Positions 33,298-41,502 of a DNA stretch of 64,000 bases are shown here, one piece after another (position 1 is the stretch's first letter; every line of letters begins with the position of its first letter). The translations under genes and the position numbers were made by a program. The stretch comes from Bacteroidota bacterium. GTDB lineage: Bacteria; Bacteroidota; Bacteroidia; JACPRZ01. The notes beneath the pieces were generated by a model that was not told where the DNA came from, searched no databases, and saw only the letters and a list, made by a program, of their open reading frames with translations. The DNA is taken from contig JACPRZ010000063.1 in assembly GCA_016193485.1 (NCBI GenBank), positions 128,156 through 192,155 on the forward strand, in the 5' to 3' direction.

Positions 33298-33798
33298 TTA
33301 TTTCCTGATTGGCGATTGCCGTTGAAATGGCACCCTCACAGTAAAAAACGATACCTTTTCCAGGATATGGCAACTGTTGCAACTTGCCGCTAACACATTA
33401 AATTCTTTATTAAAGGCAACTGTATCCATGTTCTCAACTGCCTTTTGCATTTCAGGTAAAACACCGGTCAAAAAGTACTCCGCTGATTTTGTCCTCTTTG
33501 GTCTGCGCTGGAGACCATTTTCGATAGTGAGTTTTATTTTCTCCAACTGATATTTTGCGCATTCCCAGTTTTCGTCTTGCCCGGCCCAATAAAGTTCCTG
33601 GTAGCGATACCCTGTCTCAATCATTGCGATGTCAAGTCCGCGAAATTGTCTCTCAATGGTCTTTAATTTTTCTTCATCTGTTCCTGTTATCCAGTCCCCT
33701 TGTATTGAATCCCTGTCCAGATGGCTGCATGACCGAACAATTATCGCAGCCAGCGCCAGGGTGCATAATCCGGTTACAATTAAATATTTTATTTTCAT
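33298..33798 (-). CDS. periplasmic class-II c-type cytochrome (cytochrome c-prime/c556-like four-helix bundle)
   Basis: Signal peptide and a single CxxCH heme motif (ASCNSCH) about 25 aa from the C-terminus, within a ~140-aa predicted helical protein. Its ATG overlaps the upstream stop in an ATGA arrangement. Confidence 0.5.
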   Translation of the reverse strand: MKIKYLIVTGLCTLALAAIIVRSCSHLDRDSIQGDWITGTDEEKLKTIERQFRGLDIAMIETGYRYQELYWAGQDENWECAKYQLEKIKLTIENGLQRRPKRTKSAEYFLTGVLPEMQKAVENMDTVAFNKEFNVLAASCNSCHILEKVSFFTVRVPFQRQSPIRK

Positions 33799-34544
33799 CG
33801 TTTGCGTATCAATTCAAGAATTCCGGTAATAAACGTCAACGGATGAACGGGATTACCGGGAACAAATAAATCAATTTTGTGCATAGTTAAAAAATTCCTG
33901 TTCAGGGCCGGACTGCCGTCAAAAATTCCCCCGCTGATGGCATCTGTTCCCGCAAGAATGATGATTTTCGGTTCGGGAATCGCATCGTAACAGATCTGCA
34001 GCGGCACCGCCATATTCTCTGTGATGGGTCCCGTGATTACAATTCCGTCTGAATGGCGCGGAGAAGCCACAAACTCAATTCCATATCGGCCCATATCGAA
34101 GTTCACATTTCCGCAGGCATTTAATTCCAGTTCACAACTGTTGTCTCCACCTGCCGAAACCTGTCTTAACTTTATTGAGCCGCTGAAGTACTTTGAGATC
34201 TCTGTCCGGATAATATCAGGATTTAACTCAATGGTTTTATCTTCACCATCCTTAGTGATCAGCCGTTCTCTTTCGTTGGTAGAAATTTTATAGTCAGTTG
34301 TAAATTTGATTTTATCGGGAAAAGCAAATGCACATTCTCCGCAAAAAGCGCACCTGCCCAGATCAATGCACACCGGGCTTCCCGTAATGGCCTCAGTCGG
34401 ACATAACTCAACCAGCGCATTTTCATCTATTGTTTCTTTTGAAATGACAGGCCTTCCCCTGAAAATTCCCGGAACTTTGGCATGAGTTACATCCGGGATA
34501 TATTGCTTTCCCTGGCGGAGAAGTATTTTTATATTATCAATCAT
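33795..34544 (-). CDS. Group-4 hydrogenase/complex-I-like fusion of a ferredoxin domain (HycF/NuoI-like) with a small subunit (HycG/NuoB-like). Canonical Fe-S ligands are mostly missing.
   Basis: FVASPRHSDGIVITGPIT and ILAGTDAISGGIF align to the NuoB/HycG core. The N-terminal domain keeps one CxxCxxC plus a CP. Confidence 0.6.
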   Translation of the reverse strand: MIDNIKILLRQGKQYIPDVTHAKVPGIFRGRPVISKETIDENALVELCPTEAITGSPVCIDLGRCAFCGECAFAFPDKIKFTTDYKISTNERERLITKDGEDKTIELNPDIIRTEISKYFSGSIKLRQVSAGGDNSCELELNACGNVNFDMGRYGIEFVASPRHSDGIVITGPITENMAVPLQICYDAIPEPKIIILAGTDAISGGIFDGSPALNRNFLTMHKIDLFVPGNPVHPLTFITGILELIRKR

Positions 34545-34558
34545 GCTTCCGGGTTAAT

Positions 34559-38575: not shown

Positions 38576-39496
38576 TTAAGCGGCAATAAATTTTCCCGTT
38601 ACGAACAGCACTCCCAAAAATATCAGCAATGAAATAGAGGTGACCGCAAAAATAAACTGCGGGTTATGGTTCATCCTGAATCTTGCCATGAAGGATTCAA
38701 TGATTCCAACGGTCATTGCAAACAGAATCTGGACCCCGATAAAAATAGGTATTGAGTAAAACCATTCTTTACCCGGGGTGAGAAAAAAATTAGCAATGAG
38801 GGCTCCATACATGGCGAATTTCAGGTTGGCCGCATAGAGTATAAGCCCAAGGTCAAATCCGCTGTTGTCAAGGATCATCACTTCATGAACCATCGTAAGT
38901 TCCAGGTGGGTTTTCGGGTCATCCACGGGCATGCGGCTGTTTTCCGTCATGGCAATAATCACGATGACAAAAGCGGCAAGAACGCCAACGGCATAAGAAA
39001 CGTAAGAACCAAAATGGAGAGAACGGAATATCTCGAAGAAGGATTCGTAACCGGTAAGAAGCGCGAAAGATCCCATAAGTATAAAGAAAGCGGGTTCAAC
39101 AAGCATGGAATAAAGCGCTTCCCGGCTTGCGCCCATGCCCTCAAAACTGCTCCCAGTATCAAGCGAAGAGATAATCATAAAAAATTTTCCCAATGCAAGT
39201 ACGTAAGCGAAGCAGACAAAATCCCATTTAAATGAAATCAATCCCGGGCTGTCGCCAAAGGGGATAAAAGAGATTGCCGCCAATACCGAAGAAAAATAAA
39301 TTGCCGGGGCGATCTGAAAAATCAAACTGCTTGTTTCGCTGTACACAGCGCCTTTTCTGAATAACCGCCAGATATCTTTCAGCGGTTGGAAAATTCCGGG
39401 ACCCTTTCTGCCGGAGAGAATGCTTTTAATGCGAATGATTATCCCGGGAAAAAACAGAGTGGTGGCGATGATCAGAAGAATCCCTGTAATGTCCAT
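38576..39496 (-). CDS. HycD/HyfC/NuoH-like membrane subunit
   Basis: 306 aa. RIKSILSGRKGPGIFQPLKDIWRLFRKG matches the NuoH/HycD loop signature. Confidence 0.65.
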   Translation of the reverse strand: MDITGILLIIATTLFFPGIIIRIKSILSGRKGPGIFQPLKDIWRLFRKGAVYSETSSLIFQIAPAIYFSSVLAAISFIPFGDSPGLISFKWDFVCFAYVLALGKFFMIISSLDTGSSFEGMGASREALYSMLVEPAFFILMGSFALLTGYESFFEIFRSLHFGSYVSYAVGVLAAFVIVIIAMTENSRMPVDDPKTHLELTMVHEVMILDNSGFDLGLILYAANLKFAMYGALIANFFLTPGKEWFYSIPIFIGVQILFAMTVGIIESFMARFRMNHNPQFIFAVTSISLLIFLGVLFVTGKFIAA

Positions 39497-39510
39497 TCGT
39501 AAATACGTTA

Positions 39511-41502
39511 TTAGTTCAAGGTTTCAACAATCAATGAAATTATGATTGCCAGAACGATAAAAATTATTCCGTATAAAATATAAAATTGCACTTTCCCGTT
39601 TTGAAAAAATCGGAACGCATTGAAAAATCCTTTCAGATATTTTATTGGAAAATCAATAAGAACGGCTTCCATCCTGTCGTAAGGATTTGTCTGCAGGCCC
39701 ACCGGCCCCGGGAACACGCCTTTTATTTTTTCTTCCTTTTTATTCATCATCAATAATGGCCGCACTAATTTTCTGTAGGAGCGGACAAACGAGTTTGCCG
39801 TATATTGAAGCTTGGCTCCCGGGCCGGTATATCCGCAACCCCAGGTAGGCGATACCAATCTGTTTGGGGAAGCGACAAGCCATCTTATGCCGAAGAGAAG
39901 GATTGAAAGGAGAATCAATGCAAAGGCGGACATGCTGATACTCTGAAATAAAGGAAAAAATTCTGCCGGTTGTCCAGTAAGGTTTTTTACAGCGGTAAAA
40001 AGTCCTGCAGGAATTACTGCGATTCCGACAAAAAACTGCGGCAGAAGCCCTATCAGGATAATGAATATTGCAATAAGATATTTCGGAAAAAGTATGGCGT
40101 TTTTCGCTTCATGCACCGGTTCATGATAGAGATGACGTTCCTTCCCTAAAAACATAATACCAAATGCCTTGGTGAAACAAAGCATCGCCAATCCGCCAAT
40201 GAGCGTCAATCCGGAGACAGAACCTATCATCAGGATAGAGAAAAGGATATGCTCTTGGTTGATTCCATTAAATAATCCGGAATAAATGATAAATTCAGAA
40301 ACGAATCCATTAAAGGGAGGCAGTCCGCAGATAGCCAGGGATGCTATGAGAAATAAAATGGCTGTTTGAGGCATCTTTTTAATTAAACCGCCAAGATGTT
40401 CAATCTCCATCGTGTGTGTTTTCTGATAAACAGTTCCCGCACCGAAAAATAAAAGCGACTTAAAAAGGGAATGATTAAGCGAATGAAGCAGCGCCCCGGT
40501 AAAACCGGCAAAAGTTAGGTAGGAATTATTTAGCCCCAGACCAATTAAGCCAAGCCCTATTCCCATTCCGATAATTCCGATATTTTCTATGCTGTGATAT
40601 GCCAGTAATTTCTTAACGTTATGCTGTACAATGGCAAGCATCACACCATATACCCCTGAGAGGAGTGATATCAGAAGAACGATGCAGCCCATTGCCAGGT
40701 AATCCATGTTTATCAGCAGGAGCATTCTGAGAATTCCAAAAATGCCAAGTTTGATGATCACTCCCGACATCACTCCCGAAATATGGGCGGGTGCAGCAGG
40801 GTGTGCATACGTAAGCCAGGTATGAAACGGAACAAATCCCGCTTTAAAAGCAAAGCCGATAAAAAAACAGATAAAAAGCAATGACCCTGCAGATGGTCCA
40901 ACCGATCTGCTATACTCGTTTATGGCATTAAAATCATAGGAACCGGTATGATGACTGATATAGATAAACCCGATGGTAAGAAAGAGCACTCCAATATGGG
41001 ACTGCACCAAAAAATTAATTCCCGCTTTGATGGTTGCCATTTTCCCGTGTTCAAAAATTACCAACAGAAAAGAAGAAATTGTCATTATTTCCCAGAAACA
41101 AAGGAAGGCAAGGAAATTCTGAATAAGGAAAATACCAATCATGGAAAAATGATTGATCATATAACTTGCAAAATGGAGGGAAAGATTACCGGGCTGATTT
41201 TCGTAACTTTTCATATAACTCCTGCCGTATAAAATTCCGGTAAGCGAAGTGAAATTGGTCAGCAGGATAAACCAACCCGCAAGGGCATCGGCTCTTACCG
41301 GTATTGTTCCGAAAACATAACCGCCATCAAAAATTTCCTGAAAGGATTCCCCAAAAAACGTTTTTACGGCAATATAAGAACTCAAACCCGCAGAAAAGAG
41401 TACGGCAAGAAGCGCAATATTACTTTTCCAATCCGCTCTTATTACGATTGTAAGAATAACGAAGAAGGCGATACTAAAAAGTGCAACAACGCTCAAACTC
41501 AT
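39511..41502 (-). CDS. HyfB/NuoL/MrpA-like antiporter-type membrane subunit
   Basis: 663-aa polytopic protein with a WLTYAHPAAPAHISGV block homologous to the NuoL/HyfB core. Confidence 0.65.
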   Translation of the reverse strand: MSLSVVALFSIAFFVILTIVIRADWKSNIALLAVLFSAGLSSYIAVKTFFGESFQEIFDGGYVFGTIPVRADALAGWFILLTNFTSLTGILYGRSYMKSYENQPGNLSLHFASYMINHFSMIGIFLIQNFLAFLCFWEIMTISSFLLVIFEHGKMATIKAGINFLVQSHIGVLFLTIGFIYISHHTGSYDFNAINEYSRSVGPSAGSLLFICFFIGFAFKAGFVPFHTWLTYAHPAAPAHISGVMSGVIIKLGIFGILRMLLLINMDYLAMGCIVLLISLLSGVYGVMLAIVQHNVKKLLAYHSIENIGIIGMGIGLGLIGLGLNNSYLTFAGFTGALLHSLNHSLFKSLLFFGAGTVYQKTHTMEIEHLGGLIKKMPQTAILFLIASLAICGLPPFNGFVSEFIIYSGLFNGINQEHILFSILMIGSVSGLTLIGGLAMLCFTKAFGIMFLGKERHLYHEPVHEAKNAILFPKYLIAIFIILIGLLPQFFVGIAVIPAGLFTAVKNLTGQPAEFFPLFQSISMSAFALILLSILLFGIRWLVASPNRLVSPTWGCGYTGPGAKLQYTANSFVRSYRKLVRPLLMMNKKEEKIKGVFPGPVGLQTNPYDRMEAVLIDFPIKYLKGFFNAFRFFQNGKVQFYILYGIIFIVLAIIISLIVETLN

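What the first reader, a model, noticed from the sequence alone, without database searches (positions are those of the whole stretch)
33795..41502. Hyf/Ehr-type complex-I-like membrane module whose [NiFe] ligands and most proximal Fe-S ligands are replaced
Six co-directional, abutting minus-strand genes follow the hydrogenase-4/formate-hydrogenlyase order hyfB(NuoL-like)-hycD(NuoH-like)-hyfE-hyfF(NuoN-like)-large subunit(NuoCD-like)-[small TM protein]-ferredoxin::small subunit(NuoI::NuoB-like). By-eye alignment shows that where group-4 hydrogenases have ERICGICxxxH, the large subunit has AESIAGDTVAGH. The spacing and the His are kept, but both Cys are replaced by Ala/Thr. The C-terminus ends ...DFPVCNKSFNLSYCGHDL with no DPCxxCxx(H/R). 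Against HycG, the small subunit reads CGGCNGC -> AGGDNSC, GACGNSGG -> GTDAISGG and PGCPP -> PGNPV, so only one of four proximal-cluster cysteines remains. The fused ferredoxin domain keeps ligands for only one 4Fe-4S cluster (ELCP plus CAFCGEC). This points to a non-hydrogenase, cofactor-depleted ion-translocating module (Ehr-like), and one more degenerate than described Ehr complexes, which keep the NuoB cluster. No hyp/hyc maturation genes are present in the window.
Basis: partly seen in the sequence, partly recalled or inferred. Interest (0 to 1): 0.8.

Follow-up and report, generated by a model that had tools for sequence, protein, structure and literature searches.

The report
Cluster-stripped Ehr complex-I-like membrane module
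This operon encodes a relative of respiratory complex I and membrane hydrogenases that keeps all its ion-pumping residues but has lost the nickel-iron site and two of its three iron-sulfur clusters, so it probably moves ions without carrying electrons; hundreds of Bacteroidota species carry close copies.

Summary
Window 33795-41502 (minus strand) is one tight operon with six conserved genes: HyfB-like, NuoH/HycD-like, HyfE-like, HyfF-like, a NuoC::NuoD-like large subunit and a ferredoxin::NuoB-like small subunit. A DMT_6/DUF486 gene is inserted only in this lineage. Both [NiFe] motifs are gone. Three of the four proximal (N2-type) cluster cysteines are replaced by Asp, Asp and Asn. Ligands for only one ferredoxin [4Fe-4S] remain. 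The genome (92% complete) shows no HypC, HypD, HycI, [NiFe] large subunit or FdhF-type formate dehydrogenase.

The operon belongs to the known Ehr family (function unknown) and sits in a derived, well-supported Bacteroidota subclade. Other Ehr lineages sampled keep all four proximal cysteines and usually both ferredoxin clusters. The change is narrow: the small subunit differs from cluster-keeping Ehr at only four consistently changed positions, and the membrane subunits hardly differ. All key ion-translocation residues are invariant across 58-81 species.

Best reading: a redox-independent ion translocator built on the Ehr scaffold. Identity is about 0.9 likely; this mechanism about 0.45. It is a new variant of a known kind. 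I could not read the primary Ehr papers.

The parts
39511..41502 (-). EhrA-type, HyfB/NuoL-like antiporter-like subunit (663 aa)
   Evidence: PF00361 hit, and best NCBIfam model is hydrogenase 4 subunit B. E138, K220, K251, H340, H344, K348 and E403 are invariant in 58 family members and align with NuoL/M and HyfB key residues.
38576..39496 (-). EhrB-type, NuoH/HycD-like junction subunit (306 aa)
   Evidence: PF00146 hit. It is the most conserved subunit: 42% of columns are at least 95% conserved. R30, D41, R125, E134, D192, E199, E205, D210, E267, R272 and R274 are invariant and shared or conservatively matched (D210 aligns with Glu) with HycD/HyfC, most also with NuoH.
37938..38570 (-). EhrC-type, HyfE-like subunit with a NuoK-like C-terminal half (210 aa)
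   Evidence: NCBIfam HyfE model and weak PF00420 hit. The VVENG Glu aligns with NuoK E36 and the HyfE ENG motif; that motif and the LLD motif are highly conserved in the family.
36442..37875 (-). EhrD-type, HyfF/NuoN-like antiporter-like subunit (477 aa)
   Evidence: PF00361 hit and hydrogenase 4 subunit F models. E128, K214, H328 and E387 are invariant in 75 family members.
34940..36439 (-). EhrL-type large subunit, NuoC::NuoD/HycE-like, without [NiFe] ligands (499 aa)
   Evidence: PF00329 plus PF00346 hits. AF2 model has pLDDT 95.5; best Foldseek match is HycE 7z0s_E with TM 0.89/0.84.
35813..35848 (-). Remnant of [NiFe] motif L1: AESIAGDTVAGH in place of RxCGxCxxxH
   Evidence: The family consensus is AE[SN]IAGDT..GH.
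34943..34975 (-). Remnant of [NiFe] motif L2: SFNLSYCGHDL in place of DPCxxCxx(H/R)
34559..34927 (-). DMT_6/DUF486 small membrane protein (122 aa), a lineage-specific insertion between ehrL and ehrS and not a conserved subunit
   Evidence: PF04342 hit, E 1.9e-41. It is absent from this position in all 80 related loci and in the nearest relatives L127, L128 and L129.
33795..34544 (-). EhrS-type small subunit, ferredoxin-like domain fused to a NuoB/HycG-like domain (249 aa)
   Evidence: PF01058 hit plus weak NuoI/HycF models. AF2 model has pLDDT 89.9; the C-terminal half matches MbhJ 6cfw_J with TMt 0.84 and rmsd 1.8 A.
34332..34403 (-). The only complete Fe-S ligand set: C48(P)...C65xxC68xxC71
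   Evidence: All four Cys are invariant in the 76 family sequences. By the ferredoxin ligand-swap rule this is the second-motif cluster. Its assignment as medial (N6b-type) is from memory.
34131..34148 (-). Former proximal-cluster motif 1: GDNSCE in place of GCNGCE/CCxxE
   Evidence: D134 is 80/81, S136 is 80/81, and C137 is 70/76.
33927..33950 (-). Former proximal-cluster motif 2: GTDAISGG in place of GxCxxxGG
   Evidence: D201 is 81/81; it is Glu in the Rikenellaceae lineage.
33849..33860 (-). Former proximal-cluster motif 3: PGNP in place of PGCPP
   Evidence: N231 is 80/81.

Best explanation
The operon encodes a six-subunit Ehr (energy-converting-hydrogenase-related) complex from a derived, Bacteroidota-specific subclade.

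Shown:
- The gene content and order match ehrA-D, ehrL and ehrS.
- The large subunit has neither [NiFe] cysteines nor the NuoD quinone-binding Tyr/His.
- In the small subunit, three of four proximal (N2-type) cluster cysteines are replaced by Asp, Asp and Asn. The fourth is dispensable across the family.
- The first ferredoxin cluster is gone, so ligands for one [4Fe-4S] remain.
- Every key charged residue of the two antiporter-like subunits, of the NuoH-like junction and of the HyfE-like subunit is invariant.

Inferred: with the wire cut on both sides of the single remaining cluster, no electrons can reach the old active-site pocket. The complex therefore most likely works without redox chemistry. 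It would act as an H+ and/or Na+ translocator (Mrp-like antiporter) or as an ion-gradient-coupled conformational machine. The peripheral arm would be kept as the coupling or gating module. Its former cluster site now holds a conserved acidic pair (D134 and D/E201), which could bind a cation or take part in proton handling. The last cluster would be structural or a redox/O2 sensor.

Confidence that this is a cluster-depleted, non-hydrogenase Ehr complex is about 0.9. Confidence in the redox-independent ion-translocation mechanism is about 0.45.
For: - Identity and motifs.
- Family size and conservation: at least 582 GTDB species stretches encode relatives; the 80 best loci all carry the six-gene core. 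Large subunits are 61-77% identical and small subunits 64-82%.
- No conserved partner genes flank the operon.
- Ion-translocation residues are invariant.
- Other Ehr lineages keep the clusters, and two intermediates keep the proximal cluster but lack the first ferredoxin cluster.
- All five depleted lineages sampled fall in one clade with SH-like support 0.985. They are the window family, P0241, Rikenellaceae P0242 (P0243, in the same clade, has an unsampled small subunit) and P0299. All keep an acidic residue at positions 134 and 201, while positions 137 and 231 vary.
- The replacement is narrow. Only four small-subunit positions differ consistently from cluster-keeping Ehr. There are 1, 1, 5 and 2 conservative differences in the NuoH-, HyfE-, HyfF- and HyfB-like subunits.
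- The genome has a separate 11-gene nuo operon. Its only PF00361 genes are NuoL/M/N and the two here, so it has no Mrp antiporter.
- No hyp genes, HycI, [NiFe] large subunit or FdhF-type FDH were found.
Against: - The peripheral subunits and the NuoH-like junction are the most conserved parts: 38-42% of columns are at least 95% conserved, against 22-23% for the antiporter-like subunits. This suggests something specific still happens at the old active site, more than a cap would need.
- One [4Fe-4S] ligand set is strictly invariant.
- The large subunit has 25 clade-specific, near-invariant positions, including gained H40, C41, C57, C58, C253, C444 and C446. I could not test whether they form a metal site.
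- There are no MrpE/F/G-type subunits that would supply a separate Na+ path.
- No experimental data exist for any Ehr complex; function is stated as unknown in PMC10284858 and PMC4378227.
Confidence: 0.55

Rival explanations
1. It is still a redox enzyme with a shortened or re-routed wire. The single [4Fe-4S] accepts electrons from ferredoxin or flavodoxin and passes them to a new site built from the Cys/His gained in the large subunit, or directly to a substrate bound nearby, and this drives ion pumping.
For: - The remaining cluster ligands are invariant.
- The depleted family has near-invariant H40, C41, C57, C58, C253, C444 and C446 where cluster-keeping Ehr have Arg or aliphatic residues.
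- Intermediates with two clusters exist (L099, L104), which shows the wire can be shortened stepwise.
- In the window, an NfnAB/SudAB-like pair is transcribed divergently next to the operon.
Against: - Only H40, C253 and C444 are shared by all depleted lineages. Rikenellaceae P0242 has V41, A57, I58 and V446, so a common four-ligand site is unlikely.
- L093 already has H40, C41 and C57 while keeping all clusters, so these gains are not a replacement for lost clusters.
- The Nfn-like neighbours are not found next to ehr in any of the 80 loci.
- No conserved electron-input partner is present.
- The NuoD quinone ligands are absent.
Confidence: 0.15
2. It is an ion-gradient-driven, non-redox catalyst. 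The conserved pocket contains E154, D204, H209, R440 and H445 in the large subunit and D134 and D201 in the small subunit. It would carry out acid-base or hydration-type chemistry powered by the membrane arm, in the way DAB and Cup/NDH-1 couple PF00361 proteins to CO2 hydration.
For: - The hydrogenase-type non-ligand pocket residues (Glu of EPGH, Arg of the RG motif, His445) are kept in nearly all Ehr.
- The junction is the most constrained region.
- The acidic pair is conserved in all depleted lineages.
Against: No candidate substrate exists, no recognisable catalytic metal motif is present, and no conserved neighbouring genes point to a pathway. This reading is speculative.
Confidence: 0.15
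3. It is a decaying relic: a hydrogenase/Ehr operon on its way to loss, with no function.
For: Successive loss of cofactor ligands. A foreign gene is inserted between ehrL and ehrS in this genome, and other small ORFs occupy the same spot in 17 loci. Occurrence is patchy: 19 of 401 sampled genomes of the phylum carry any Ehr small subunit.
Against: In the 80 loci the core genes that each contig covers are present in the same order. In loci whose contigs span the whole operon all six are there, with 61-82% identity in the peripheral subunits. Functional residues are invariant and no stop codons were seen in the matches. The replacements themselves (Asp, Asp, Asn) are conserved rather than random.
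Confidence: 0.03
4. It is a genuine Hyf-type hydrogenase and the motif losses are alignment artefacts.
For: NCBIfam's best models are hydrogenase 4 subunits, all far below their cut-offs. Public sources name relatives 'Ni,Fe-hydrogenase III large subunit'.
Against: HMMER, MAFFT and fold-level matches all place non-Cys residues at the ligand positions. No hyp or hycI genes were found. True hydrogenases with CGxC/CxxC branch outside this clade.
Confidence: 0.01

Closest known systems
Ehr (energy-converting / Ech-hydrogenase-related) complexes, e.g. Geobacter sulfurreducens EhrA-D, EhrL, EhrS (GSU0739-45)
   Same: Same six subunit types and gene order. The large subunit lacks the [NiFe] cysteines and shares the Ehr-wide GD..H and NKSFNLSY.G.DL motifs. 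It nests inside the Ehr clade (PMC7894505, PMC4378227, PMC6349859). Function is unknown in both.
   Different: The other Ehr lineages I sampled keep all four proximal-cluster cysteines and mostly two ferredoxin clusters. These were Acidobacteriota L082, Thermodesulfovibrio-type L085, other Bacteroidota L093-L103, and metagenome loci L083, L088 and L126. Here the proximal and distal clusters are gone. I did not see the Geobacter sequence itself.
Group 4 [NiFe] hydrogenases of the Hyf / formate hydrogenlyase type (E. coli Hyf, Hyc; group 4f is said to be closest to Ehr, PMC10284858)
   Same: Subunit folds and order. The large-subunit model matches HycE (TM 0.89) and the small-subunit model matches HycG and MbhJ. 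Hydrogenase-type pocket residues (EPGH Glu, RG Arg, His445) and HycD-type junction residues are kept.
   Different: No [NiFe] ligands, no proximal cluster, no HyfA/HycB, no FdhF, no HyfD, and no maturation genes in the genome.
Respiratory complex I (Nuo/NDH-1)
   Same: L-shaped architecture is inferred. Antiporter-like subunits carry the Glu-TM5/Lys-TM7/Lys-TM8/Glu-TM12 set, with a NuoH-like E-channel Glu and a NuoK-like Glu.
   Different: No N2 cluster. The NuoD quinone ligands are replaced (Tyr position is Gly203, His position is Ile153). No NuoA/J as separate genes and no NuoEFG. The genome has its own 11-gene nuo operon on another contig.
Mrp-type multisubunit cation/proton antiporters
   Same: This is the proposed working analogy: PF00361 antiporter-like subunits plus a NuoK-like subunit moving ions without redox chemistry. 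The genome has no Mrp of its own.
   Different: There are no MrpB/E/F/G-type subunits. Mrp has no NuoH, NuoD or NuoB homologues. This is not a member, only a functional analogy.
Mbx/Mbs of Thermococcales ([NiFe]-less MBH relatives)
   Same: A hydrogenase-derived complex that lost some or all [NiFe] ligands and changed function.
   Different: From my own knowledge (not checked here), Mbs keeps its three [4Fe-4S] clusters and reduces polysulfide at the proximal cluster. Here that cluster's ligands are absent. The sequence match to 6u8y_L and 6u8y_J is much weaker than to MBH or FHL.

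Membership tests
Ehr complexes | Six-gene cluster: NuoL/HyfB-like, NuoH-like, HyfE-like, NuoN/HyfF-like, large subunit, small subunit | tested here: met
   The same core is present in all 80 related loci. The composition matches the descriptions in PMC7894505 and PMC4378227.
Ehr complexes | Group-4-like large subunit lacking the N- and C-terminal [NiFe] cysteine motifs | tested here: met
Ehr complexes | Large subunit branches with other [NiFe]-less sequences, next to but outside true group 4 hydrogenases | tested here: met
   FastTree LG tree of 69 sequences. The backbone node uniting all Ehr has weak support (0.49), but nodes further in have 0.98-1.0.
Ehr complexes | Small subunit with four Cys for the proximal [4Fe-4S], as in all other Ehr lineages sampled | tested here: not met
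   The four positions read D, C, D, N here. This defines a subclade rather than excluding membership, because [NiFe] loss, not the cluster, is the published criterion.
Group 4 [NiFe] hydrogenase (Hyf/Hyc/Ech/Mbh) | L1 RxCGxCxxxH and L2 DPCxxCxx(H/R) motifs | tested here: not met
Group 4 [NiFe] hydrogenase (Hyf/Hyc/Ech/Mbh) | Proximal [4Fe-4S] ligands in the small subunit | tested here: not met
Group 4 [NiFe] hydrogenase (Hyf/Hyc/Ech/Mbh) | Hyp maturation genes and an endopeptidase in the genome | tested here: not met
   HypD, HypC and HycI were not found in the 91.9% complete genome. HypA, HypB, HypE and HypF were not searched.
Respiratory complex I (Nuo) | N2 cluster in NuoB and quinone-binding Tyr/His in NuoD | tested here: not met
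Respiratory complex I (Nuo) | Antiporter-like subunits with conserved TM5 Glu, TM7 Lys, TM8 Lys, TM12 Lys/Glu | tested here: met
   The HyfF-like subunit has Asn at the TM8 position, as E. coli HyfF does.
Mrp antiporter | MrpA-G subunit set including MrpE/F/G | tested here: not met
   The operon holds only the six Ehr genes plus DMT_6. MrpE/F/G families were not searched genome-wide. The genome has no further PF00361 genes.
Any redox-active member of the superfamily | Actual Fe-S content and electron-transfer activity | not testable with these tools
   Needs purified protein, metal analysis, EPR and a structure.

The most novel reading that the evidence does not exclude
This would be a complex-I-type coupling machine that runs with no electron transfer. 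The former N2 site has been rebuilt into a conserved carboxylate site (D134 with D/E201, plus Asn/Ser) that binds a cation or proton. That site, rather than a redox event, would trigger or gate ion movement through an otherwise unchanged Ehr membrane arm. The one remaining [4Fe-4S] would serve as a structural element or a sensor.
Probability: 0.4. Interest if true: 0.8.

Novelty: new variant of a known kind. Interest (0 to 1): 0.6.

Why it matters
How a chemical event at the NuoB/NuoD/NuoH junction drives distant antiporter-like subunits is still debated for complex I and membrane hydrogenases. In this natural variant the junction and membrane arm are under strong constraint and essentially unchanged from cluster-keeping relatives, yet the electron wire has been removed ligand by ligand.

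If the variant is active, it separates the coupling machinery from redox chemistry. It would offer a simple six-subunit system for asking what the junction senses. It would also bear on Ehr complexes in general, whose function is unknown although they occur in many phyla.

In practice, hundreds of Bacteroidota genomes annotate these genes as 'Ni,Fe-hydrogenase III' or 'NADH-quinone oxidoreductase subunit'. That can mislead metabolic reconstructions into inferring H2 metabolism or a second complex I.

Tried and rejected
- Conserved neighbours as functional partners. All-against-all clustering of ORFs in 80 loci found nothing conserved beyond the six core genes. The window's NfnAB-like pair, the 166-aa CxxCH protein, ArsC and TatD are not linked to ehr elsewhere.
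- DMT_6 as a subunit. Rejected, because it is absent from this position in all other loci.
- Cluster loss as an adaptation to aerobic life. Heme-copper oxidase genes occur in 4 of 5 genomes with the depleted type and in 5 of 5 with the cluster-keeping type, so there is no simple split. The sample is small.
- The gained Cys/His as a replacement cluster site common to all depleted lineages. Weakened, because only H40, C253 and C444 are shared, and L093 has H40, C41 and C57 with all clusters present.
- Spatial proximity of the gained residues. Not testable, because the fold tool returns no coordinates.
- Promoter and terminator consensus scan. Promoter-like sites did not exceed the shuffles (25 found, 26.5 expected); terminator-like sites were 16 against 11.1 +/- 3.5 expected, and none stood at a boundary of the operon. 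The scan is not suited to Bacteroidota promoters.
- Literature. The first search was swamped by 'electronic health record' hits. Coppi 2005 and Marreiros 2013 are not held. No held paper describes an Ehr small subunit without the proximal cluster.
- The Geobacter EhrS sequence itself could not be fetched with the remaining look-ups.

Full report
**What is there.** Window 33795-41502 holds seven abutting minus-strand ORFs. Pfam and NCBIfam identify them as follows:

| Coordinates | Length | Assignment |
|---|---|---|
| 39511-41502 | 663 aa | HyfB/NuoL-like antiporter-like subunit |
| 38576-39496 | 306 aa | NuoH/HycD-like subunit |
| 37938-38570 | 210 aa | HyfE-like subunit |
| 36442-37875 | 477 aa | HyfF/NuoN-like antiporter-like subunit |
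| 34940-36439 | 499 aa | NuoC::NuoD/HycE-like large subunit |
| 34559-34927 | 122 aa | DMT_6/DUF486 protein |
| 33795-34544 | 249 aa | Small subunit: ferredoxin-like N-terminus, NuoB/HycG-like C-terminus |

All NCBIfam hydrogenase-4 and Nuo matches fall far below their curated cut-offs. Gaps between genes are 2-62 nt. The next ORF (33298-33798) overlaps the small-subunit stop in an ATGA.

**Checking the motifs.**
- HMMER against PDB chains aligns HycE RVCGICGFAH with SIAGDTVAGH, and HycE SLDPCYSC with SFNLSYCG.
- It aligns MbhJ SCNGCD, GACPTGG and PGCPP with GDNSCE, GTDAISGG and PGNPV.
- MAFFT alignments that include E. coli HycE and HycG and the genome's own NuoD and NuoB agree.
- The NuoD quinone ligands are also missing: the Tyr position is Gly203 and the His position is Ile153.
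- In the ferredoxin-like domain only C48(P) and C65xxC68xxC71 remain. The first CxxCxxC and the last Cys-Pro cysteine are gone.
- By the usual ferredoxin ligand swap this leaves one cluster. I believe, from memory, that it corresponds to the medial N6b-type cluster next to N2.
- AF2 models are confident: large subunit pLDDT 95.5, small subunit 89.9. They match HycE (TM 0.89) and MbhJ (TMt 0.84, rmsd 1.8 A), so the folds are intact.

**Genome context.** The assembly is 4.0 Mb and 91.9% complete.
- It has a separate 11-gene nuoABCDHIJKLMN operon on contig C71.
- It has heme-copper oxidase genes.
- HypD, HypC, HycI, a [NiFe] large subunit and an FdhF-type formate dehydrogenase above cut-off were not found.
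- Its only PF00361 genes are NuoL/M/N and the two in this operon, so it has no Mrp antiporter.

**The family.**
- The large and small subunits have thousands of relatives in metagenomes. The closest come from Chitinophagales, Saprospiraceae and other Bacteroidota.
- In the GTDB species genomes, at least 582 stretches encode relatives.
- The best 80 loci come from Chitinophagales, Saprospiraceae, Flavobacteriales, Sphingobacteriales, Bacteroidales families and Ignavibacteria-labelled MAGs. Each locus carries the core genes that its contig covers, in the same order; loci spanning the whole operon have all six.
- No other gene is conserved next to the core.
- The DMT_6 gene sits between the large and small genes only in the window. 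The nearest relatives, at 77% and 74% identity, lack it.
- In 17 loci the same intergenic spot holds unrelated small ORFs.
- An even sample of the phylum finds an Ehr-type small subunit in 19 of 401 genomes, so occurrence is patchy.

**Conservation.**
- Among the 76 family small subunits, C48, C65, C68 and C71 are all Cys, and the retained proximal Cys137 is Cys in only 70. In the 81-sequence set, D134 is 80/81, D201 is 81/81 and N231 is 80/81.
- The fraction of columns at least 95% conserved is 42% for the NuoH-like subunit and 38% for both the large and the small subunit. It is 32% for HyfE-like, 23% for HyfB-like and 22% for HyfF-like.
- The ion-translocation residues are invariant:
  - HyfB-like: E138, K220, K251, H340, H344, K348, E403.
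  - HyfF-like: E128, K214, H328, E387.
  - NuoH-like: R30, D41, R125, E134, D192, E199, E205, D210, E267, R272, R274.
  - HyfE-like: the NuoK-type Glu.
- This rules out a decaying relic.

**Which known family.** The gene set and the [NiFe]-less large subunit match Ehr complexes. These were first described in Geobacter and later in many phyla. Their function is stated as unknown (PMC7894505, PMC4378227, PMC6349859, PMC10284858, PMC3569383), and HydDB excludes them as non-hydrogenases (PMC5037454). A search of 1.84 billion representatives returned 110 full-length relatives at 31-54% identity. Nearly all carry the same GD..H and NKSFNLSY.G.DL motifs. Only four have CGxC and CxxC. In a tree rooted on E. 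coli NuoCD, the true hydrogenases are basal and the window's family is nested deep within the Ehr sequences.

**What is different.** Small subunits encoded next to other Ehr large subunits keep all four proximal-cluster cysteines. Most also keep two full ferredoxin motifs.
- These are Acidobacteriota L082, metagenome loci L083, L088 and L126, ten other Bacteroidota genomes L093-L098 and L100-L103, and the NuoB-only small subunit of a Thermodesulfovibrio-type locus L085.
- L099 and L104 are intermediates. They keep the proximal cluster but have already lost the first ferredoxin cluster.
- All depleted small subunits belong to one clade with support 0.985. This covers the window family, L089-L092, P0241/L123, Rikenellaceae P0242/L125 and P0299/L130.
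- Inside that clade a single cluster-keeping sequence, L093, sits with poor resolution. I cannot say whether the loss happened once or several times.
- Across the depleted lineages, positions 134 and 201 stay acidic (D, and D or E). Position 137 varies (C, A, V, S, T, D) and so does position 231 (N, A, S).
- L091 combines D134S with C137D.

**How narrow the change is.**
- Against 14 cluster-keeping Ehr small subunits, the 81 depleted ones differ consistently at only four positions: C134D, G136S, C201D and C231N.
- The membrane subunits show 1, 1, 5 and 2 conservative clade-specific differences.
- The large subunit shows 25. They include H40, C41, Y44, C57 and C58 in two paired strands of the NuoC-like domain. 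They also include C253, H378, K383, C444 and C446, around the superfamily-conserved H445.
- Only H40, C253 and C444 are shared by all depleted lineages.
- L093 already has H40, C41 and C57 while keeping its clusters. A common replacement cluster is therefore unlikely.
- I could not measure distances, because the fold tool gives no coordinates.

**Mechanism.**
- Shown: the ligands of the [NiFe] site, of the proximal cluster and of the distal ferredoxin cluster are absent. The ligands of one cluster are present. The ion-translocation and junction residues are present.
- Inferred: the missing clusters are really missing. No known Fe-S site uses at most one Cys with carboxylates, and some lineages have no Cys there at all. 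Electrons therefore cannot reach the old pocket.
- My best reading is a redox-independent ion translocator, either an Mrp-like antiporter or a gradient-coupled conformational device. The acid-lined former cluster site would take part in cation or proton handling. The last cluster would be structural or a sensor.
- Against a purely passive cap, the junction is the most constrained part of the complex.
- Rivals are a shortened redox wire using new residues, or ion-driven non-redox chemistry in the pocket.

**Novelty and limits.** Ehr complexes are known, and [NiFe] loss is their defining trait. The loss of the proximal and distal Fe-S clusters in a widespread, strongly conserved Bacteroidota clade was not described in any paper I could search. 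The two primary Ehr papers are not held, so earlier mention cannot be excluded. I rate it a new variant of a known kind, with moderate-to-high interest. No experiment on any Ehr complex is available, and the proposed function is inference.

Noticed in passing
window 34559-34927 (-); L021, L026, L027, L043, L075 between the large and small subunit genes: The short spacer between ehrL and ehrS is an insertion hotspot. The window has a DMT_6/DUF486 gene there. Seventeen of 80 loci carry other inserts there; recognisable ORFs include a four-helix-bundle type in L021/L026/L027, a GxxExxY-like one in L075 and a DUF559-like one in L043.
   Followed up: partly
window 33298-33798 (-): This 166-aa ORF has a start that overlaps the ehrS stop (ATGA). 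It has a hydrophobic N-terminus and a C-terminal CNSCH heme-c motif, with a weak below-cut-off Cytochrome c' hit (PF01322, E 0.019). It is not found next to ehr in other loci.
   Followed up: partly
window 41628-44551 (+): Transcribed divergently from the operon are a PyrK/NfnA-like gene (FAD_binding_6 plus DHODB_Fe-S_bind) and a GltD/NfnB-like gene (Fer4_20 plus Pyr_redox_2). A DUF559 endonuclease-like gene (42593-43024) separates them. The pairing with ehr is not conserved elsewhere.
   Followed up: partly
window 45114-49346 (+): A single 1410-aa ORF joins an AcrB-type RND transporter to a HlyD-type membrane-fusion adaptor. It is followed by an outer-membrane efflux protein gene (49359-50684).
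   Followed up: no
L124:3001-4503: An Ehr-type large subunit (P0246, 48% identical) stands alone between mutS and unrelated genes, with no membrane or small-subunit genes beside it.
   Followed up: no
L130:1578-5207: A depleted-type locus (P0299) has only the HyfF-like, large and small genes. Upstream is a glycosyltransferase on the other strand, so the HyfB-, NuoH- and HyfE-like genes are elsewhere or absent.
   Followed up: no
L127:2006-5974; L015 and L033: The closest relative has two HyfB-like genes in tandem. One MAG (Hanamia SMAG_U7161) carries two separate depleted-type ehr loci.
   Followed up: no
L129:7570-8995: In the Thermoflavifilum MAG the HyfF-like gene is called as two ORFs (327 and 175 aa). 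This is either a frameshift or an assembly error.
   Followed up: no
L093 and L111 (genome G249): This is a possible transitional form. The small subunit keeps all clusters but already has Ser136 (GCNSCE). The large subunit already has H40, C41 and C57, as in the depleted family.
   Followed up: partly
window 29909-32038 (-) and 27153-27683 (+): An EF-G family GTPase paralogue (709 aa) and a ferritin gene lie downstream of the operon region.
   Followed up: no
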